Below, piece after piece: positions 240 through 43,172 of a stretch of DNA of 64,000 nt. Source of the DNA: Lachnospiraceae bacterium (lineage in GTDB: Bacteria; Bacillota; Clostridia; Lachnospirales; Lachnospiraceae); the NCBI GenBank assembly GCA_017438775.1, contig JAFRUR010000053.1, forward strand, positions 2,812 through 66,811. The letters are read 5' to 3'. Within the stretch, counting starts at the first letter, position 1. Each line of letters starts with the position of its first letter. Position numbers and translations under genes: made by a program. The notes beneath the pieces are model-generated. The model was not told where the DNA came from. It made no database searches and was given only the letters and a program-made list of their open reading frames with translations.

Positions 240-445
240 CCGGCCGAAAGCACCCGCCGTGCTTTTTCCGTTTCTTGCTTCCGGGGCAGGTCTCCTGGCT
301 CGCGTTCATCCTCCGGCCGCCGTCTTCCCGAATCTCTCCAGTGACGTATGGGCGGCCTTCGTCCCGCATACAGTAGCGGGGGCTGCTGCGGCATCGCACC
401 GCATTCCCTTTTCACCCCTGCGCGTGTGCGCAGAGACACCTCGAA
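240..445 (-). ncRNA. cobalamin (B12) riboswitch aptamer
   Basis: The minus strand reads GGTGAAAAGGGAATGCGGTG...GCAGCAGCCCCCGCTACTGTA...GTCACTGG...GGGAAGACGG...AGCCAGGAGACCTGCC. The last element is the B12 box (285-300 in plus coordinates). Order and spacing of the conserved blocks match the cobalamin riboswitch consensus. Confidence 0.8.
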
Positions 446-459
446 ACCATTCTGGTCCC

Positions 460-5954: not shown

Positions 5955-6006
5955 AGTGCCTGCCGCTCGAACCGGAGTTTGCCGTGATCCTGCGAGGAGG
6001 ATCGAT

Positions 6007-7263
6007 ATGCCGTCTGAGCAAAAAAAACGATCCACATACGGCGATACGGGGCAGCTTGCGCAGCTGCCCCTGCGTTTATCTGCGTGGTTTGCGGATCACC
6101 GGCGCATGCTCCCGTGGCGGGAGAACGCCGCGCCTTACCGCGTCTGGGTCTCGGAGATCATGCTCCAGCAGACCCGGATCGAGGCGGTGATCCCGCACTT
6201 CGAGGCCTTTCTCTCGCAGTTCCCGGACATCCCGGCCCTGGCCGCGGCCCCGGACGACGCGGTGATGAAGGCCTGGCAGGGGCTGGGCTATTACAGCCGC
6301 GCCCGAAGCCTGAAAAAGGCCGCGCAGGTCTGCGTGGAAACGTACGGCGGGGAGCTTCCGTCCACCTTTGAGGAACTGTCCGCCCTGCCCGGCATCGGCC
6401 CGTACACGGCCGGCGCTGTCGCCTCCATCGCCTTCGGGCGCCCCGTGCCCGCCGTGGACGGCAACGTCCTGCGCGTCGCCGCGCGCCTGTGCGGGAGCGA
6501 AGCCGACGTGATGGAGGAGCGCACGAAAAAAGACTTCTTCGCGATGCTGTCGGACGTCATGCGCGGCCCGGACTTTGCGATGCATCCGGGGGCCTTCAAC
6601 GAGGCCCTGATGGAACTGGGCGAGACCGTCTGCATCCCGAACGGGAGCCCGCTGTGCGCGGACTGTCCCCTGCGGGAGGACTGTATCGCCTGGCGCGAGG
6701 GGCGTCAGGAAGACCTGCCCGTGCGTCTCGGAAAGAAGGCGCGCAGAACGGAAGAGCGGACCGTCTTCGTGATCAGCGCCGGGGACCGGTATCTTCTGCA
6801 CAGACGCCCTGAAACGGGCCTTCTGGCCGGCCTGTACGAGTTCCCGTCCGCGGACGGAACGCTGGGGTGGGAAGAGGCGGTGCGCTTTGTGGAAGATCTT
6901 CTGCGGGGCGGGGAAGCAAAAGACCTGGAGAGTGCAGGAGAGGTCTGCAACAAATCTTCCGCTTCGGCAGACAGCGGTTCCGCATCGAATCGAGGTCACA
7001 ACCGCTGCAGCGGAGCCGCAGCAATTACCGAAGACCAGACGGACGGTTTTGGCTGCGATTTGGAACAGGCGTTTCTGGGCAGCGCAAAGCACGTCTTCTC
7101 CCACGTGGAGTGGCACATGACGGGCTGGCGCGTCGGGCTCCCGGAAAGCGCCGCGCAGGCGCCGCTTCCGGACGGCTATGTCTGGGCGGGTGCGCGTGAG
7201 ATCCGCGAGGTCTACGCCCTGCCGTCGGCGTTTCGCTTCTTTCTTCAGGCGATCGGCGCCTGA
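6007..7263 (+). CDS. mutY: A/G-specific adenine DNA glycosylase
   Basis: LPWRENAAPYRVWVSEIMLQQTRIEAV, GLGYYSRARSL, the HhH-GPD region and the Cys cluster CADCPLREDC are present. ATG 6007 follows GAGGAGGA. Confidence 0.9.
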   Translation: MPSEQKKRSTYGDTGQLAQLPLRLSAWFADHRRMLPWRENAAPYRVWVSEIMLQQTRIEAVIPHFEAFLSQFPDIPALAAAPDDAVMKAWQGLGYYSRARSLKKAAQVCVETYGGELPSTFEELSALPGIGPYTAGAVASIAFGRPVPAVDGNVLRVAARLCGSEADVMEERTKKDFFAMLSDVMRGPDFAMHPGAFNEALMELGETVCIPNGSPLCADCPLREDCIAWREGRQEDLPVRLGKKARRTEERTVFVISAGDRYLLHRRPETGLLAGLYEFPSADGTLGWEEAVRFVEDLLRGGEAKDLESAGEVCNKSSASADSGSASNRGHNRCSGAAAITEDQTDGFGCDLEQAFLGSAKHVFSHVEWHMTGWRVGLPESAAQAPLPDGYVWAGAREIREVYALPSAFRFFLQAIGA

Positions 7264-7415
7264 GGAGCGTCGGGGCGGAGGGCGCTGCCCTGAATTAGTT
7301 TCAGACATACAGGGACGCCCCGGCAGGTATACGGAACATGCGCCAGGAGACATCAGCCATTGTCCCCCGGCAGGCATACCGGACCTGTTTGTACGAAAAA
7401 GTTTTTGTGAGATTT

Positions 7416-7440
7416 GGAATATCCTCTCGAAAACAGCGAC
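7416..7440 (+). promoter_or_regulatory. candidate ECF-type promoter (GGAAT-N16-CGAC)
   Basis: GGAAT (7416-7420) and CGAC (7437-7440) are separated by 16 nt and lie ~40 nt upstream of the sigma-factor start. They resemble the generic ECF -35/-10 pattern. Confidence 0.3.
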
Positions 7441-7481
7441 TTAATGTGTGAAGGCGCTAATGCACCAGCCGGAGGATCAGC

Positions 7482-8039
7482 ATGGAAGACCGGAACATCA
7501 TCGAGCTATACTGGGCCAGAGACGAAAGGGCCATCGCGGAGTCGCAGAACAAGTACGGCGGCCTCTGCACGCATATCGCCCTGCGGTTTCTCGGGGTCCG
7601 CGAGGACGCGGAGGAGTGCCTGAACGACGCTCTGCAGGCGGCCTGGAACGCCATCCCGCCCGAGAGGCCCGAGAAACTGGGCGCGTGGCTCTCACGCGTC
7701 ACCCGGAACCTTGCTGTCAGCCGGTACCGCAGAGACCATGCGGCACGGCGCGGGACCGAGACCGACGTGATGCTCTCGGAGCTGGAGGACTGCATCCCCT
7801 CCGGTGAGAGCGTCGAGGGGGCGGCCGAGGCGGCGGAGCTTTCGCGGACGATCGACGCGTGGCTTCGCACCCTGGACAAAACCGACCGCGTCGCGTTTCT
7901 GCGCAGGTACTACGCGGGCGAGAGCCTGACCGAGGTCGCGGAGGTGGCCGGTCAGACGCCGGCAGCCATGGCCAAGCGCATGTTCCGCCTGCGGGCAGGC
8001 CTTCGCACATTCCTGGAAAAGGAGGGAGTCGCGCTGTGA
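7482..8039 (+). CDS. sigma-70 family (ECF-like) RNA polymerase sigma factor
   Basis: At 185 aa it has region-2-like EDAEECLNDALQAAWNAIPP and region-4 HTH LTEVAEVAGQTPAAMAKRMFRLR. The N-terminal IIELYWARDERAI type is common in Clostridia. Confidence 0.85.
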   Translation: MEDRNIIELYWARDERAIAESQNKYGGLCTHIALRFLGVREDAEECLNDALQAAWNAIPPERPEKLGAWLSRVTRNLAVSRYRRDHAARRGTETDVMLSELEDCIPSGESVEGAAEAAELSRTIDAWLRTLDKTDRVAFLRRYYAGESLTEVAEVAGQTPAAMAKRMFRLRAGLRTFLEKEGVAL

Positions 8040-9559
8040 GCGAGAAGAATGAGAAACTGATGGGAGCGATCTCCGGAATCGGAGACGACCTGGTGGAAGA
8101 GATGGCGGAAGATATCGCCGCCGTGAAGAAGGCTGCGGAGACTGAGTCGTCCCATGAGGGCGCCGGAAGGATCATCAAAGCCGATCTGACCCGCACGAAC
8201 GATGCGCCGCAGAAGAAGCGCCGCACGCCGCTTCGCAGACGGATCGCCGCTCTGGCGGCCGCCGCAGCGGTGCTGCTGGGAGCGGTCCTGCTTCCCGGCG
8301 TGTTCCAGAAGGGCGGCGTTCTGCCGGGTCAGACAGACGGACCGAAAGGAGCGGAAAAGGGCGTGGTAACGGTACTGGCGGAAGCGGCCTATCCGGAATT
8401 GGAGGTGCATAACTTCGAAAGCCTGGATTTGTATCAGGAGGCGGTCGCGGCCTTCATGCAGCGCGCCATCCCTGAGATTGCGAAGGCGGGAGACGAGGGA
8501 CAGAACCTGGCGTTTTCGCCCCTGAACATCTATATGGCCCTGTCCATGCTGTCGGAGACGGTCGGCGGCGATACGCAGAAGGAGATCCTGGATCTCCTGG
8601 GTGCGAAAAATATGGAACTCCAGCGCCGCATGGCAGCCGCTGCCTGGAAGAACAACTATTTCAACGGAGATCATGGCAAACTCCTGCTGGCCAACTCCAT
8701 GTGGCTTCGCGAGGGCTTTCCTTTCAAGAAGGCTGCCATCGAGACGCTGGCCAGAGAGCATTTCGCTTCCTCCTTCTCCGGCCAGCCCGGCACCGCGGAG
8801 TTCGACAAGGCTTTGCAGGACTGGATCAACAAACAGACCGACAACATGGTGAAGGACAGCGTGGATACCCTTAAAATGGATCCCGCCACGATCATGGCCC
8901 TGGTCTCCACGATCCGCTTCTCCGGCATCTGGTCCGACGAGTTCATGGACAAGTTCAACACGGAGGACACCTTCCACGCGAAGGCAGGCGACGTGACTGC
9001 GACCTTCATGCACCAGACCCATGCGGACACGGTGTTTTACGGAGAGAAGTATTCCGCGGCAAGCAAGGACTTCAACAGCGGTTACATCATGGACTTCATT
9101 CTCCCGGACGAGGGCGTGGATCCCGCGGAGCTGCTGAGCGATCCCGACGTGCTCAAGTTCCTCACCGAGTCCTGGGCGGAGCGGTATGAGCGCACGCAGC
9201 AGAAGCGCGCGCTGGTGAACCTGTCGGTCCCGAAGTTCGATATTTCTTCGGATCTTCATCTTGAAAAGGCCCTGCAGTCCCTCGGAATCACCTCTGCCTT
9301 CAGCGCCGACAAGGGCGACTTTTCGCCCCTCACGGATGAAGGCGGAATCTTCCTGTCTTCCGTGCAGCACGGCGCCCGCATCCTCATCGATGAGAAAGGC
9401 TGCGAGGCTGCGGCCTACACCGCCATGATGGTGTGCGGCGCGGCGATGCCTCCGACCGACATCATCGACTTTACCCTGGACCGTCCCTTCGTCTTTGCGG
9501 TGCGCGGCGGCGACGGCGTGCCCGTCTTCGTGGGCATCGTGGAGACCCCTGCGAAGTAA
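8036..9559 (+). CDS. membrane-anchored serpin with anti-sigma-like N-terminal cytoplasmic segment
   Basis: GTG 8036 overlaps the sigma stop (GTGA); an alternative ATG is at 8060. The layout is an N-terminal acidic IGDDLVEEMAEDI segment, a basic stretch, then a TM helix (IAALAAAAAVLLGAVLLPGVF). A full serpin fold follows: FSPLNIYMALSML...hinge EKGCEAAAYTAMM...FTLDRPFVFAV. Confidence 0.8.
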   Translation: MSEKNEKLMGAISGIGDDLVEEMAEDIAAVKKAAETESSHEGAGRIIKADLTRTNDAPQKKRRTPLRRRIAALAAAAAVLLGAVLLPGVFQKGGVLPGQTDGPKGAEKGVVTVLAEAAYPELEVHNFESLDLYQEAVAAFMQRAIPEIAKAGDEGQNLAFSPLNIYMALSMLSETVGGDTQKEILDLLGAKNMELQRRMAAAAWKNNYFNGDHGKLLLANSMWLREGFPFKKAAIETLAREHFASSFSGQPGTAEFDKALQDWINKQTDNMVKDSVDTLKMDPATIMALVSTIRFSGIWSDEFMDKFNTEDTFHAKAGDVTATFMHQTHADTVFYGEKYSAASKDFNSGYIMDFILPDEGVDPAELLSDPDVLKFLTESWAERYERTQQKRALVNLSVPKFDISSDLHLEKALQSLGITSAFSADKGDFSPLTDEGGIFLSSVQHGARILIDEKGCEAAAYTAMMVCGAAMPPTDIIDFTLDRPFVFAVRGGDGVPVFVGIVETPAK

Positions 9560-9580
9560 GCGAAAACAAAAGAAACAAGA

Positions 9581-9610
9581 AAGAAGCGGCGGAGATATCC
9601 GCCGCTTCTT
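9581..9610. terminator. bidirectional stem-loop terminator between the convergent serpin and glycerate kinase genes
   Basis: A perfect 12-bp stem AAGAAGCGGCGG / CCGCCGCTTCTT with a 6-nt loop. It has a T-rich tail in the minus-strand sense. Confidence 0.75.
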
Positions 9611-9642
9611 GATTCGTATACCGGAAAAAACGGAACTGTGCG

Positions 9643-10824
9643 TTACCCGCGCCGCATGAACTCGCGCATGGAGCGGTCGCTGTCTTTCAGCTGCATGCCG
9701 GCCTTCAGCATGTAGAAGGTGCGGCGCGCCGCGTCGAGATAGAGCTCCCTGGCGCGGCCGATGGCCTCGTCCAGGGTCATGGGCGCATTGACGGTGGTCA
9801 TGAGAGAGGAGACGCCATGATCCAGGATGTCCATCGCGCCCCGGCCCAGACCGCCGCAGATCCCGACCACGGGGATGCCGGCCGCCGCGGCCGCTTCGCC
9901 CACGCCGGCCATGACTTTGCCCTGGGCGCTCTGCCAGTCGGTGCGTCCCTCGCCGGTGATCACGAGGTCCGTGCCTTCGAGTCTTTCCTTGAAGTGGATG
10001 AGGTCCAGCACGGTGCGGATCCCGGAGCGGAGCGTGCCGCCCAGGACGACGGAGAGCGCCGCCCCCAGGCCGCCGGCCGCGCCGGTGCCGGGCAGGAGAG
10101 AGCAGTCCTTGCCGCAGGTCTCCTTGAGGAGCGCCTGGTAGCGCAGCATGCCTTCCTCCAGAAACGCGAGTTTGGCGGTATTTGCGCCCTTCTGCGGGCC
10201 GAAGGTAAACGTGGCGCCGTCCGGGCCGCAGAGGACGTTCTGAACGTCACACATGATGGTCAGCGAGGCGCTCTGAAGGCGCGGGTCGAGACCCGCGAGA
10301 TCCAGGGAGGCGAGGCGCCGGAGGTCTTCTCCGCGTCCCTCGAGTTCGTTTCCGTCCTTATCCAGAAGACGGGCGCCCAGGGCGCGGAGGCAGCCGATGC
10401 CGCCGTCGTTGGTGGCGGAGCCCCCGATGGCCACGGCGATGTCCGTATAGCCCTGTTCCAGGGCGTCGCGGATCAGTTCTCCGGTGCCATAGGTGGTGGT
10501 GCGCAGGGGATCGCGCTCTGCGGGCTGAAGAAGAGGCAGGCCCGAAGCTGCGGCCATTTCGATGACCGCGCGGTCACCCGGGAGAATGGCGTAGGAGGCC
10601 TCTACGGGGCGGAAGAGAGGGTCGTTTACGGTGACGGTGCGCATCGAGCCGCCCTCGGCTTTGGCCACCGCGTAGGCCGTTCCCTCGCCGCCGTCGGCGA
10701 CCGGGACGCCCTCGCAGGCGCAGTCCGGAAACACCTCGCGGGCCGCCTGGGTGAGCAGACGCGCGGTGTCCTCGCTGGTAAGGCTCCCCTTAAAGGAATC
10801 GGATACGAACAGGAAATGCAGCAT
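9643..10824 (-). CDS. glxK: glycerate kinase
   Basis: SDSFKGSLTS, VPVADGGEGT, IGGSATNDGG and ITGEGRTDWQS are the GlxK/GarK family hallmarks. Confidence 0.9.
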   Translation of the reverse strand: MLHFLFVSDSFKGSLTSEDTARLLTQAAREVFPDCACEGVPVADGGEGTAYAVAKAEGGSMRTVTVNDPLFRPVEASYAILPGDRAVIEMAAASGLPLLQPAERDPLRTTTYGTGELIRDALEQGYTDIAVAIGGSATNDGGIGCLRALGARLLDKDGNELEGRGEDLRRLASLDLAGLDPRLQSASLTIMCDVQNVLCGPDGATFTFGPQKGANTAKLAFLEEGMLRYQALLKETCGKDCSLLPGTGAAGGLGAALSVVLGGTLRSGIRTVLDLIHFKERLEGTDLVITGEGRTDWQSAQGKVMAGVGEAAAAAGIPVVGICGGLGRGAMDILDHGVSSLMTTVNAPMTLDEAIGRARELYLDAARRTFYMLKAGMQLKDSDRSMREFMRRG

Positions 10825-42106: not shown

Positions 42107-42281
42107 TTGCTCTCCGCGAGCGAAGCGGGTGGAGGTTGCATGAGTCAAATCGAACACAGCGGCCGCGCACTTTGCTGCGCGGCCGCGTAGGAACGATTTC
42201 ATTCTGTCGGGCGTGCAAGCCGCCCATCGGCACAGCCGATTTCTAATGGCGGCTTGCTGTCCGCGAGCGAAGCGAGTGGAG
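42107..42281 (-). repeat. 28-nt imperfect direct repeat (26/28) duplicating the ssrA 3' end and flank, 147 nt apart
   Basis: TTGCTcTCCGCGAGCGAAGCGgGTGGAG (42107-42134) matches TTGCTgTCCGCGAGCGAAGCGaGTGGAG (42254-42281). Each copy is followed by AATCGAAC, the T-loop complement. Confidence 0.85.
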
Positions 42282-42622
42282 CTGAGGGGAATCGAACCCC
42301 TGTCCGAAAGCCCATCCACCCCGGTTTCTCCCATCACAGTCTCCGATTTGACATTCCCTCTGCCGCACGCCCGAAGACAGGCTTACGGTTTCAGTAGCTT
42401 CATCTTTTCGTCTTACGCCGCAAAGCTTAGGCGAAAGCGTGCCTCACCGTTCATGATGCCGGTGACCGGTGGGGGTGAGCAGCCCCGGGCCGACAGCTGC
42501 CCTTAGGCAGCGAGCGCAAACTGATTGTTGGCGTTTAAGTTTAAGTTCCGTTTTTTATCGTGGCCACGGTCCACGGATGGCTTCCAGAGATTCCGAACCC
42601 CCGTCGAAACCAGTACAGCCCC
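42277..42622 (-). ncRNA. ssrA: transfer-messenger RNA (tmRNA)
   Basis: The minus strand starts GGGGCTGTACTGGTTTCGACGGGGGTTCGG and ends GGGGTTCGATTCCCCTCAGCTCCA. The acceptor stem pairs with a G3:U wobble. The tag ORF GCC AAC AAT CAG TTT GCG CTC GCT GCC TAA encodes ANNQFALAA. CCA is not encoded. Confidence 0.92.
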
Positions 42623-43017: not shown

Positions 43018-43091
43018 CGAGGCGTGGCTCAGTTTGGTAGAGCGCTGCGTTCGGGACGCAGAGGTCGCAAGTTCGAATCTTGTCGCCTCGA
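43018..43091 (+). tRNA. tRNA-Pro (anticodon CGG)
   Basis: Hand-folded cloverleaf with acceptor CGAGGCG/CGCCTCG and D-arm GCTC-AGTTTGGTA-GAGC. The anticodon arm is CTGCG-TTCGGGA-CGCAG and the T-arm is GCAAG-TTCGAAT-CTTGT. Discriminator A; no encoded CCA. Confidence 0.9.
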
Positions 43092-43097
43092 TTGTAT

Positions 43098-43169
43098 GGC
43101 CAGTTGGTCAAGGGGCTAAGACGCCGCCCTCTCACGGCGGAAACAGGGGTTCGATTCCCCTACTGGCTA
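43098..43169 (+). tRNA. tRNA-Glu (anticodon CUC)
   Basis: It aligns by eye with the Firmicute tRNA-Glu pattern GGCC.GTTGGTCAAG.GG.TAAGAC. The anticodon arm is CCGCC-CTCTCAC-GGCGG and the T-arm is AGGGG-TTCGATT-CCCCT. There is a G1:U72 wobble. Confidence 0.85.
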
Positions 43170-43172
43170 TGA

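What the first reader, a model, noticed from the sequence alone, without database searches (positions are those of the whole stretch)
7416..9559. ECF-type sigma factor translationally coupled to a membrane-anchored inhibitory-type serpin (possible protease-sensing anti-sigma factor)
The gene after the sigma factor overlaps its stop (GTGA). It has the layout of Clostridial single-pass anti-sigma partners: a short acidic cytoplasmic N-terminus (IGDDLVEEMAEDI), a basic stretch and one TM helix. Its whole ~370-aa extracytoplasmic part, however, is a serpin. It starts SPLNIYMALSML and ends FTLDRPFVFAV. The hinge, EKGCEAAAYTAMM, has the small-residue run compatible with loop insertion, which is the inhibitory class. 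Bacterial serpins are normally described as secreted or lipoprotein inhibitors. A serpin used as the sensor domain of a sigma/anti-sigma pair would couple covalent capture of an external protease, and the large S-to-R conformational change, to transcription. I am not aware of this arrangement being described.
Basis: partly seen in the sequence, partly recalled or inferred. Interest (0 to 1): 0.75.

Follow-up and report, generated by a model that had tools for sequence, protein, structure and literature searches.

The report
Serpin-tipped membrane anti-sigma factor operon
A gut Clostridia bacterium has a two-gene switch in which a membrane protein that most likely holds a transcription factor (an ECF sigma factor) inactive carries a complete protease-trapping serpin on the outside of the cell; the pairing recurs in dozens of gut and rumen genomes, I found no published description of it, and it suggests a way for bacteria to sense proteases and replace the inhibitor they use up.

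Summary
An ECF sigma gene (7482-8039) overlaps by GTGA a 507-aa gene (8036-9559). That protein has a conserved cytoplasmic helix motif, a basic stretch, one TM helix (aa 70-90) and a full serpin domain (Pfam E=6.5e-63) with an inhibitory-type hinge and P1 Ala469.

The pairing is not a one-off. In 80 genome loci, every serpin with a cytoplasmic motif plus TM anchor follows an ECF sigma directly, mostly with a 4-nt overlap (38 with this sigma clade, 11 with a second clade and a different motif). None of about 20 lipoprotein-type paralogues has a sigma.

In 80 metagenome loci found with the sigma, 71 of 77 downstream genes overlap by 4 nt. They encode the same N-terminal motif plus TM, fused to unrelated ectodomains; only 5 are serpins. 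So the N-terminus is a modular anti-sigma-type partner and the serpin is one of its sensor or effector domains.

A clade-conserved ECF-type promoter scores 29.7 bits at 7413-7455; the next best site in 64 kb scores 11.

Best reading: a self-inducing loop that replaces surface serpin consumed by proteases. Sigma binding, inhibition and protease-triggered release are inferred, not shown. I found no description in the literature searched. It is a new variant of a known kind.

The parts
7413..7455 (+). ECF-type promoter-like element: -35-like TGGAATAT (7415-7422; GGAAT 7416-7420), 16-nt spacer, -10-like GCGACT (7436-7441; CGAC 7437-7440), then the conserved downstream stretch TAATGTGTGAAGG
   Evidence: The clade consensus from related loci is tGtaAcAT-N15-TTTgCGtCTtTATAGgTGAAgGG. 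A position weight matrix built without the window scores 29.7 bits here; the next best site on either strand of the 64 kb scores 11.0. No sigma-70-type promoter was found in 7200-9750.
7482..8039 (+). ECF (group 4) sigma-70 family sigma factor, 185 aa; GGAGG ribosome-binding site at 7471-7475
   Evidence: Pfam Sigma70_r2 and Sigma70_r4_2; TIGR02937 at 67.5 bits against a cut-off of 42.9; no named equivalog reaches its cut-off. Closest solved relatives are SigW and CnrH. Clade hallmarks are EDAEECxND, LSELEDCIP, FLRRYW/Y and a C-terminal LEKEG.
8036..9559 (+). Single-pass membrane protein, 507 aa: putative anti-sigma N-module fused to an extracytoplasmic serpin; the GTG start overlaps the sigma stop (GTGA)
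   Evidence: The AF2 model has pLDDT 82 and pTM 0.78.
8036..8116 (+). Conserved cytoplasmic helix motif (aa 1-27, SEKNEKLMGAISGIGDDLVEEMAEDI): the proposed sigma-binding segment
   Evidence: Conserved as MxSEKLxDAxTxIxDxLIExA in TM-anchored serpins. The same motif is found in non-serpin partners of the same sigma clade. AF2 predicts helices 3-13 and 17-38. There is only a weak sub-threshold hit to NCBIfam NF052375 'antisigma' (E=1.5e-4) and no Pfam hit.
8117..8242 (+). Non-conserved, predicted disordered cytoplasmic insert followed by a basic stretch (aa 28-69, ending KKRRTPLRRR)
   Evidence: It is a gap in most homologues and has pLDDT below 50. The basic residues on the N-side of the TM helix fit an N-in topology (positive-inside rule, established knowledge).
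8243..8305 (+). Transmembrane signal-anchor helix (aa 70-90, IAALAAAAAVLLGAVLLPGVF)
   Evidence: Hydropathy scan. A77, A78 and L80 are invariant in the TM-anchored family. AF2 predicts a helix at 70-82.
8363..8401 (+). Juxtamembrane N-terminal extension of the serpin (aa 110-122, VVTVLAEAAYPEL) with invariant Y119-P120
   Evidence: Invariant YP. AF2 predicts a strand at 112-115 with pLDDT 84, so the segment is modelled as docked on the serpin body. The equivalent segment in P0002 is a strand at 65-67. In most TM-type homologues the three residues before it are A-[YF]-A; in the window protein they are V-T-V.
8444..9550 (+). Serpin domain (aa 137-505)
   Evidence: PF00079 E=6.5e-63, full profile coverage. 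The nearest natural solved structure is tengpin, both by sequence and by fold (Foldseek E=1.6e-29).
9392..9454 (+). Reactive-centre loop, P17 E453 to P4' P473; hinge EKGCEAAAYT; predicted scissile bond A469-A470
   Evidence: Alignment to conserpin carrying the alpha-1-antitrypsin loop. The loop is conserved as EEG[CV]xAAA[YF]TV..xxGAAxPP in both TM-type and lipoprotein-type relatives. It has pLDDT below 50 and is exposed in the model, as in a native serpin.
9581..9610 (.). Hairpin with a 13-bp stem between the serpin stop and the convergent glycerate-kinase-like gene: likely bidirectional terminator that closes the two-gene operon
   Evidence: sequence.

Best explanation
This is a two-gene, self-inducing ECF sigma / membrane anti-sigma module in which the extracytoplasmic domain of the anti-sigma factor is a functional inhibitory serpin displayed on the cell surface.

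Resting state (inferred): the conserved N-terminal cytoplasmic helix of the 507-aa protein holds the co-translated sigma at the membrane.

Trigger (inferred): an external serine protease with elastase-like preference (P1 Ala) attacks the reactive-centre loop. The serpin is consumed as a suicide inhibitor and switches from the stressed to the relaxed fold. The spent molecule is then cut near the membrane and cleared by regulated intramembrane proteolysis.

Output (partly shown): freed sigma reads the conserved ECF-type promoter at 7413-7455. That is the only strong site in the 64 kb, so the main product is more sigma and more surface serpin. The module would then act as a homeostat that replaces inhibitor as fast as proteases use it up.

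A specific coupling is proposed for most family members. As in tengpin, the juxtamembrane N-extension is docked on the native serpin body. It would come loose after loop insertion and expose an A-x-A site to signal peptidase, as happens at site 1 in RsiV and RsiP.

Shown here: the gene anatomy, the domain identities, the conservation of the pairing, the modularity of the N-terminal module, and the conserved promoter. Inferred: sigma binding, inhibitory activity, the identity of the target protease, and every proteolytic step.
For: (1) Domains and overlap.

(2) Strict association in 80 genome loci. TM-anchored serpins with motif 1 sit directly after a clade-1 ECF sigma in 38 cases, mostly with a 4-nt overlap. 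Serpins with motif 2 sit after a different 156-aa ECF sigma in 11 of 11 cases. About 20 lipoprotein-type paralogues have no sigma.

(3) The N-terminal motif follows the sigma clade, not the ectodomain. In 80 metagenome loci found with the sigma alone, 71 of 77 downstream genes overlap by 4 nt. Of 59 distinct partners, 53 have a TM helix 15-100 residues in and 41 match a regular-expression version of the motif. Their ectodomains include a beta-propeller, Big_14, DUF4179, DUF4349, DUF5643 or nothing known to Pfam. Only 5 are serpins.

(4) The reactive-centre loop (hinge, length, G-A-A at P2-P1') is the same in anti-sigma-type and lipoprotein-type relatives, so the fused serpin looks like a working inhibitor. 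AF2 models it in the native fold with an exposed loop.

(5) A promoter motif is conserved upstream of the sigma genes and matches uniquely in the window. A hairpin terminator follows the serpin gene.

(6) In L064, L069 and L077 a further serpin gene follows the sigma-serpin pair, which fits serpin being the output.

(7) The nearest solved structure is tengpin. Its N-terminal region docks on the native body, traps the metastable state, and sits where strand s1A moves after the S-to-R change (PMC1905895). The equivalent segment here is modelled as a docked strand.

(8) A-[YF]-A immediately before that segment occurs in 37 of 47 TM-type but 5 of 30 lipoprotein-type relatives (Fisher p=9e-8, not corrected for phylogeny). 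Signal peptidase is the site-1 protease for RsiP and regulated intramembrane proteolysis controls RsiV (PMC8844934 and PMC6066255, titles and abstracts).

(9) Related gut serpins inhibit neutrophil elastase and proteinase 3 (PMC5127057), and tengpin inhibits leucocyte elastase.
Against: - No direct test of sigma binding was possible.
- The cytoplasmic module matches no curated anti-sigma family. It has no Pfam hit, no zinc-finger HxxxCxxC motif, and only a sub-threshold NCBIfam hit. Its conserved part is only about 25 residues.
- The window protein itself has V-T-V, not A-x-A, at the proposed signal-peptidase site, and its TM-to-serpin linker is longer than usual. The proposed site-1 mechanism may therefore not apply to this copy.
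- Cleavage of the reactive-centre loop is near the C-terminus and does not by itself shorten the membrane-attached part, so a second event is needed.
- The hinge has Cys at P14 and an aromatic residue at P9, which is atypical though compatible with insertion (established serpin knowledge).
- Only 64 kb of the genome could be scanned for promoters, so the regulon may be larger.
- The AF2 output gives no contacts, so the strand partner of the N-extension is unknown.
Confidence: 0.55

Rival explanations
1. It is a genuine sigma/anti-sigma pair, but the serpin is only cargo. The anti-sigma factor responds to some other envelope signal, or simply sets a 1:1 stoichiometric brake. The serpin acts purely as a surface-anchored or shed protease shield whose loop cleavage has no effect on sigma release.
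For: The same N-terminal module carries many unrelated ectodomains, so the release mechanism could be generic to the module and independent of the ectodomain. Loop cleavage is far from the membrane end of the protein. The window copy lacks the A-x-A site.
Against: In modular anti-sigma families that have been studied, the ectodomain is normally the sensor; RsiV and RsiP are examples (papers listed). The only strong promoter match in the window drives the serpin operon itself, so a signal unrelated to proteases would induce only a protease inhibitor. A-x-A is enriched specifically in the sigma-coupled serpins.
Confidence: 0.25
2. The downstream protein is not an anti-sigma factor. The N-terminal motif serves membrane targeting or another role, the sigma merely transcribes the operon, and the sigma is controlled elsewhere.
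For: No curated anti-sigma domain is detected. The conserved cytoplasmic part is very short. No binding test was possible.
Against: The 4-nt overlap with the sigma stop occurs in 71 of 77 metagenome loci and most genome loci. The motif changes when the sigma clade changes while the serpin stays the same. The motif is lost, together with the sigma, in the lipoprotein paralogues. This layout is the usual one for ECF anti-sigma factors: 82 ECF groups have single-pass partners (PMC7826278).
Confidence: 0.08
3. The hydrophobic segment is a constitutively cleaved signal peptide, so the serpin is simply secreted, as described bacterial serpins are. The gene order with the sigma would then have no post-translational meaning.
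For: Many homologues carry A-x-A a few residues after the hydrophobic segment. The closest paralogues are exported lipoproteins.
Against: The segment is 21 residues long and lies behind 69 residues (30-40 in homologues) of conserved, helical, acidic-then-basic sequence. That is far longer than the N-region of a signal peptide. The window copy has no A-x-A. The putative site is modelled as a strand docked on the serpin body. No signal-peptide predictor was available, so this rests on general rules.
Confidence: 0.07
4. The serpin domain has lost inhibitory function and works as a non-covalent ligand-binding sensor, as non-inhibitory serpins do in animals.
For: The hinge is atypical at P14 (Cys or Val) and P9 (Tyr or Phe). 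No activity data exist.
Against: The hinge keeps E-x-G at P17-P15 and Ala at P12-P10. The loop has canonical length and is conserved together with that of the lipoprotein paralogues. Relatives such as tengpin and the siropins are true inhibitors.
Confidence: 0.05

Closest known systems
SigV/RsiV and SigP/RsiP of Bacillus and relatives (ECF sigma with a single-pass anti-sigma factor, site-1 cleavage by signal peptidase, then regulated intramembrane proteolysis)
   Same: Both have a two-gene ECF operon and an N-in single-pass anti-sigma factor with a short cytoplasmic part. In both, the ectodomain meets an external enzyme or drug directly. An A-x-A-type site just outside the membrane is present in most family members (37 of 47). 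Papers: PMC6066255 and PMC8844934.
   Different: The ectodomain here is a serpin, not DUF4179/DUF3298. The proposed trigger is covalent suicide inhibition with a fold change, not reversible ligand binding. The sigma reaches no SigV or SigP equivalog cut-off. The window copy lacks A-x-A.
Tengpin (Thermoanaerobacter tengcongensis serpin; PDB 2pee, 2pef)
   Same: It is the nearest natural solved structure by sequence (E about 5e-31) and by fold. It is a Firmicute serpin with an N-terminal region ahead of the serpin core that docks on the native body and controls the metastable state, and it inhibits leucocyte elastase (PMC1905895).
   Different: No sigma factor or signalling role is described for tengpin. 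Identity is only 24-26%, and its N-terminal peptide has a different sequence.
Secreted or lipoprotein gut and oral bacterial serpins (siropins, Bifidobacterium longum serpin, miropin)
   Same: Same superfamily and same habitat. The closest paralogues of the window serpin (36-48% identity) are lipoproteins with the same reactive-centre loop. Siropins inhibit neutrophil elastase and proteinase 3.
   Different: Those proteins have export signals and no regulatory partner. The window protein has a cytoplasmic motif plus a TM anchor and is translationally coupled to a sigma. The serpin reviews searched mention no sigma factor or transmembrane form.
SigI/RsgI systems of cellulolytic clostridia
   Same: The concept is the same: one conserved anti-sigma N-module plus TM helix carries interchangeable extracellular sensor domains, so that paralogous sigma factors report different external cues.
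   Different: Those use SigI-type sigma factors and the RsgI_N domain, which is not detected here. Their sensors are carbohydrate-binding modules. Serpins in those organisms are described as cellulosome components, not as anti-sigma domains (my own knowledge; the co-mentions were not read in detail).
CnrH/CnrY (class II short anti-sigma domain)
   Same: A very short cytoplasmic anti-sigma segment on a single-pass protein. CnrH is among the closest solved sigma factors (E=1.1e-6).
   Different: No detectable sequence similarity in the anti-sigma part. CnrY has no large ectodomain and works with CnrX.

Membership tests
Serpin superfamily (PF00079), inhibitory class | Full-length serpin fold | tested here: met
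   Pfam E=6.5e-63 over profile positions 3-370 of 370. AF2 core pLDDT above 90. The top Foldseek hits are all serpins.
Serpin superfamily (PF00079), inhibitory class | Hinge compatible with loop insertion (P17 Glu, P15 Gly, small residues at P12-P9, no charged or Pro residue at P14) | tested here: met
   E453-K-G-C-E-A-A-A-Y-T. P12-P10 are Ala, P14 is Cys (Val or Cys in relatives), and P9 is Tyr, which is atypical but at an outward-facing position.
Serpin superfamily (PF00079), inhibitory class | Forms a covalent, SDS-stable complex with a target protease | not testable with these tools
   Needs biochemistry. P1 Ala469 only suggests elastase-like targets.
ECF (group 4) sigma-70 factors | Only sigma-2 and sigma-4 domains, about 180-200 aa | tested here: met
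   Sigma70_r2 plus Sigma70_r4_2 in 185 aa; TIGR02937 above its cut-off.
ECF (group 4) sigma-70 factors | Co-transcribed cognate regulator and a conserved, group-specific promoter upstream of its own operon | tested here: met
   4-nt overlap with the partner gene. The clade promoter consensus gives a unique 29.7-bit match at 7413-7455. Promoter function itself was not tested.
Class I anti-sigma factors (zf-HC2 / four-helix anti-sigma domain) | Anti-sigma domain of about 80-90 aa, often with HxxxCxxC | tested here: not met
   No Pfam hit in aa 1-110. No His or Cys motif in aa 1-69. The conserved part is about 25 aa.
Single-pass membrane anti-sigma factors in the broad sense | Gene immediately downstream of the ECF sigma; N-in cytoplasmic segment, one TM helix, extracytoplasmic domain; the cytoplasmic segment co-varies with the sigma clade | tested here: met
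Single-pass membrane anti-sigma factors in the broad sense | Physically binds and inhibits its sigma | not testable with these tools
No natural fusion was found.
RsiV/RsiP-type anti-sigma factors processed by signal peptidase | A-x-A signal-peptidase site just outside the TM helix, masked until the signal arrives | tested here: inconclusive
   In the family, A-[YF]-A occurs in 37 of 47 TM-type versus 5 of 30 lipoprotein-type relatives, and it lies in a modelled docked strand. The window protein has V-T-V.
RsiV/RsiP-type anti-sigma factors processed by signal peptidase | DUF4179-type juxtamembrane domain | tested here: not met
   No DUF4179 hit in the window protein. There are weak DUF4179 hits in three non-serpin partners of the same sigma clade.
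Lipoprotein or secreted bacterial serpins | Short N-terminal signal peptide with a lipobox or signal-peptidase I site | tested here: not met
   The hydrophobic segment begins at residue 70 and there is no lipobox. The paralogues with a lipobox (for example MKR..LTAC) are a separate class without a sigma.

The most novel reading that the evidence does not exclude
The serpin works as a one-shot mechanical protease receptor. Covalent capture of an external protease drives insertion of the reactive-centre loop. This dislodges the juxtamembrane N-extension from the serpin body, as the tengpin structures suggest. The freed segment exposes a signal-peptidase (A-x-A) or other site-1 cleavage site, and regulated intramembrane proteolysis then releases the sigma. 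That would make it a receptor that turns a proteolytic attack into transcription through the serpin S-to-R fold change. It would be used by many gut Clostridia to sense host elastase-type proteases and replace their surface inhibitor.
Probability: 0.3. Interest if true: 0.9.

Novelty: new variant of a known kind. Interest (0 to 1): 0.74.

Why it matters
Serpins are known as stand-alone suicide inhibitors, and no bacterial serpin has been tied to signal transduction in the literature I could search. ECF anti-sigma factors are known to sense ligands or to be cut by dedicated site-1 proteases. An ectodomain that is itself a covalent protease trap would be a new way to perceive a signal.

The arrangement is common in gut and rumen Clostridia (Oscillospiraceae, Lachnospiraceae, Ruminococcus, Acutalibacteraceae; human, mouse, rabbit and ruminant samples). 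In those habitats host pancreatic and neutrophil elastases are abundant and are linked to inflammatory bowel disease.

If the loop works as proposed, it explains how commensals match inhibitor supply to protease load. It would also offer a compact protease-responsive genetic switch, and it gives a direct experimental handle: add elastase and read the promoter at 7413-7455.

Tried and rejected
- A profile of the N-terminal module (alignment A2) was searched against 5.8 billion proteins. It returned only 5 short hits, because the motif is too short for database-wide E-values. The question was answered instead by fetching loci with the sigma.
- I looked for a natural sigma/anti-sigma fusion to fold by querying with sigma plus the N-terminal region. 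All 120 best hits were sigma-only proteins of 184-194 aa.
- A look-up of the contig encoding P0001 found nothing on record.
- Hits at E below 1 to Paratox, Terminase_6, DUF1796 and others were dismissed as sub-threshold noise.
- The NCBIfam hits 'antisigma' NF052375 and CU044_5270 on the N-terminus (E about 1e-4, 18-22 bits against a cut-off of 100) were treated as a hint only.
- I considered that the long ORF 7859-9559 (566 aa) is the real gene. I rejected this because its first 59 codons overlap the sigma gene in another frame and homologues start at the conserved motif.
- The 433-aa and 472-aa antisense ORFs were treated as GC-rich artefacts.
- The neighbour-joining tree of serpin domains shows lipoprotein and anti-sigma types interleaved. 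It has no support values, so I use it only as a suggestion that N-terminal modules were exchanged repeatedly.


Full report
**1. What is in the sequence**

Between a MutY-like gene (5956-7263, +) and a convergent glycerate-kinase-like gene (9643-10824, -) lie two overlapping genes on the + strand.

- The first gene, 7482-8039, encodes a 185-aa protein with Pfam Sigma70_r2 and Sigma70_r4_2. It matches NCBIfam TIGR02937 (sigma70-ECF) above the cut-off, but no named equivalog reaches its cut-off.
- The second gene starts at GTG 8036 inside the sigma stop (GTGA), behind AAGGAGGGAG, and ends at 9559. Its 507-aa product is identical to an NCBI 'hypothetical protein' from a Lachnospiraceae MAG.
- Residues 137-505 are a complete serpin domain (PF00079, E=6.5e-63).
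- Ahead of the serpin domain come four segments:
  - a conserved acidic helix motif (aa 1-27);
  - a non-conserved insert ending in KKRRTPLRRR;
  - a 21-residue hydrophobic helix (aa 70-90);
  - a linker ending in a conserved Y119-P120.
- A hairpin with a 13-bp stem at 9581-9610 closes the unit, and there is no sigma-70-type promoter in the region.

**2. The serpin looks like an inhibitor**

- Alignment with a conserpin carrying the alpha-1-antitrypsin loop gives P17 E453, P15 G455, P12-P10 AAA, P1 A469 and P1' A470, followed by MPP.
- Across 78 relatives the loop is conserved in length and content, EEG[CV]xAAA[YF]TV..xxGAAxPP. It is the same in membrane-anchored and lipoprotein-type proteins.
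- AF2 (pLDDT 82, pTM 0.78) gives a confident serpin core with a low-confidence, exposed loop, as in a native serpin.
- The nearest natural solved structure, by sequence and by fold, is tengpin.
- Tengpin and the gut siropins are true inhibitors of leucocyte/neutrophil elastase (PMC1905895; PMC5127057).

Inhibitory activity of the window protein itself is inferred.

**3. The pairing is conserved, and the N-terminus tracks the sigma**

The closest 120 homologues (36-48% identity) split into two groups. One has lipoprotein signal peptides. The other has MxSEKLxDAxTxIxDxLIExA, a basic stretch and a TM helix.

A scan of one genome per species returned 80 loci from gut and rumen Clostridia. Among serpin genes with enough upstream DNA:

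| Serpin N-terminal type | Gene directly upstream | Count |
|---|---|---|
| Motif 1 + TM | Sigma of the window's clade, mostly 4-nt overlap | 38 |
| Motif 2 (MxRYxKANEGIHAPEELK) + TM | A different 156-aa ECF sigma | 11 of 11 |
| Lipoprotein signal peptide | No sigma | about 20 |

I then ran the converse test and fetched 80 metagenome loci with the sigma alone.

- In 71 of 77 loci the downstream gene overlaps the sigma stop by 4 nt.
- Of 59 distinct partners, 53 have a TM helix 15-100 residues from the start, and 41 match a regular-expression version of the motif.
- The ectodomains are unrelated to each other: a beta-propeller, Big_14, DUF4179, DUF4349, DUF5643, or nothing known to Pfam.
- Only 5 partners are serpins.

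The cytoplasmic motif plus TM helix is therefore the standard, modular partner of this ECF clade, and the serpin is one of many domains it carries. When the sigma clade changes, the motif changes while the serpin stays. When the sigma is absent, the motif is replaced by an export signal.

This is the pattern expected of a cognate anti-sigma factor. Single-pass partners are the commonest kind across ECF groups (PMC7826278). Physical binding could not be tested.

**4. Promoter and output**

- Upstream of the sigma genes there is a conserved ECF-type motif, tGtaAcAT-N15-TTTgCGtCTtTATAGgTGAAgGG.
- A matrix built without the window scores 29.7 bits at 7413-7455. The next best site on either strand of the 64 kb scores 11.0.
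- Within this window, then, the sigma's only evident target is its own operon, whose other product is the serpin.
- In L064, L069 and L077 an extra serpin gene follows the pair, and L059 has two tandem pairs.

This points to a closed loop whose output is surface serpin.

**5. How it most likely works**

Serpins are consumed one-for-one by their targets. If the spent membrane-bound serpin is removed down to the membrane, its sigma is freed and the operon is induced. Inhibitor would then be replaced in proportion to protease load.

Two observations suggest how consumption could be coupled to removal.

- First, in tengpin the N-terminal region docks on the native body, and its place is taken by strand s1A after the S-to-R change. 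Here the equivalent conserved segment is modelled as a short docked strand. It spans residues 112-115 (pLDDT 84) in the window protein and residues 65-67 in P0002, only about 10 residues beyond the TM helix.
- Second, the three residues before that segment are A-[YF]-A in 37 of 47 membrane-type relatives but in only 5 of 30 lipoprotein-type relatives (p=9e-8, uncorrected for phylogeny). This resembles the signal-peptidase site-1 mechanism reported for RsiP, and the regulated intramembrane proteolysis of RsiV (PMC8844934, PMC6066255).

The window copy has V-T-V at this place and a longer linker. For this particular protein the attacking protease, or another one, may make the first cut. All these steps are inference.

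**6. Rivals**

- The serpin may be cargo on a generically regulated anti-sigma factor.
- The N-terminus may not bind the sigma.
- The hydrophobic segment may be a constitutively cleaved signal peptide.
- The serpin may be non-inhibitory.

Each is weighed in the rival list. The co-variation of motif with sigma clade, the long conserved cytoplasmic region and the conserved loop argue against the last three.

**7. Comparison and novelty**

The system works like an RsiV- or RsiP-type ECF switch and like the modular RsgI sensors, but it fails the membership tests for class I anti-sigma domains and for DUF4179. The serpin is a tengpin-like member of the serpin superfamily.

Searches for serpin together with anti-sigma, sigma factor or extracytoplasmic function found no relevant paper. 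The ECF reclassification paper and two serpin reviews do not mention such a link. The supplements of the ECF paper were not held.

I rate it a new variant of a known kind. It is widespread, I found no description of it, and it offers a testable and potentially new sensing mechanism.

**8. Limits**

- Most loci come from MAGs.
- Start codons and sigma identification rest on phmmer and simple rules.
- The tree has no support values.
- The Fisher test ignores relatedness.
- Only 64 kb was scanned for promoters.

Noticed in passing
L033, L041, L045, L048, L052, L057, L066, L069, L074, L075, L079 (e.g. L079:2305-4394): A second, unrelated ECF sigma clade (156-aa proteins, not found by phmmer with the window sigma) is also translationally coupled (ATGA) to TM-anchored serpins. 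These carry a different cytoplasmic motif, MxRYxKANEGIHAPEELK. The serpin has therefore been recruited to at least two sigma/anti-sigma lineages.
   Followed up: partly
window 7441-7455; related loci: Just downstream of the -10-like CGTCT/CGACT, the stretch TATAGGTGAAAGG(CC)TTT is conserved across many loci (TAATGTGTGAAGGCG in the window). This is longer than expected for a -10 element alone. It could be a start-site or discriminator region, or a leader element.
   Followed up: no
L064:6548-8284, L069:6340-7848, L077:4341-6122; L059:1142-5523: In three loci a second serpin gene lies directly after the sigma-serpin pair. It has its own TM or signal segment, and in two cases an extra N-terminal region of about 230 aa. 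L059 holds two tandem sigma-serpin pairs. L005, L007 and L028 hold tandem lipoprotein serpins.
   Followed up: partly
Alignment A4, position equivalent to window aa 111-113: A-[YF]-A (a signal-peptidase-like A-x-A) precedes the conserved N-extension in 37 of 47 TM-type serpins but in only 5 of 30 lipoprotein-type serpins, which mostly have K-Y-Q. The window protein is an exception, with V-T-V.
   Followed up: yes
window 8117-8242 (aa 28-69 of the serpin protein): A low-complexity insert of about 40 aa, predicted disordered, lies between the conserved helix and the TM helix. It is absent from most homologues. Inserts at the same place occur in P0082, P0109 and L056, the last made of EQERG-type repeats.
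   Followed up: no
P0044 (685 aa): One database homologue is an ABC-ATPase (PF00005) fused to a serpin. This is probably a gene-calling or assembly artefact and not a real fusion.
   Followed up: no
window 42274-42622 (-), 43018-43091 (+), 43097-43170 (+), 268-458 (-): A tmRNA (tag peptide ANNQFALAA), tRNA-Pro(CGG), tRNA-Glu(CTC) and a cobalamin riboswitch are present elsewhere in the window.
   Followed up: no
window 5956-7263 (+) and 7270-7293: The upstream gene is MutY-like by its sequence motifs (my reading of the ORF translation, not tested with Pfam). As listed it has a long N-terminal extension, so the real start is probably further downstream. A weak terminator-like hairpin follows it.
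   Followed up: no
L061:1744-3822: Here a clade-1 sigma gene lies immediately downstream of a TM-anchored serpin that lacks the motif, which is the reverse order. The contig ends too soon to see the sigma's own partner.
   Followed up: no
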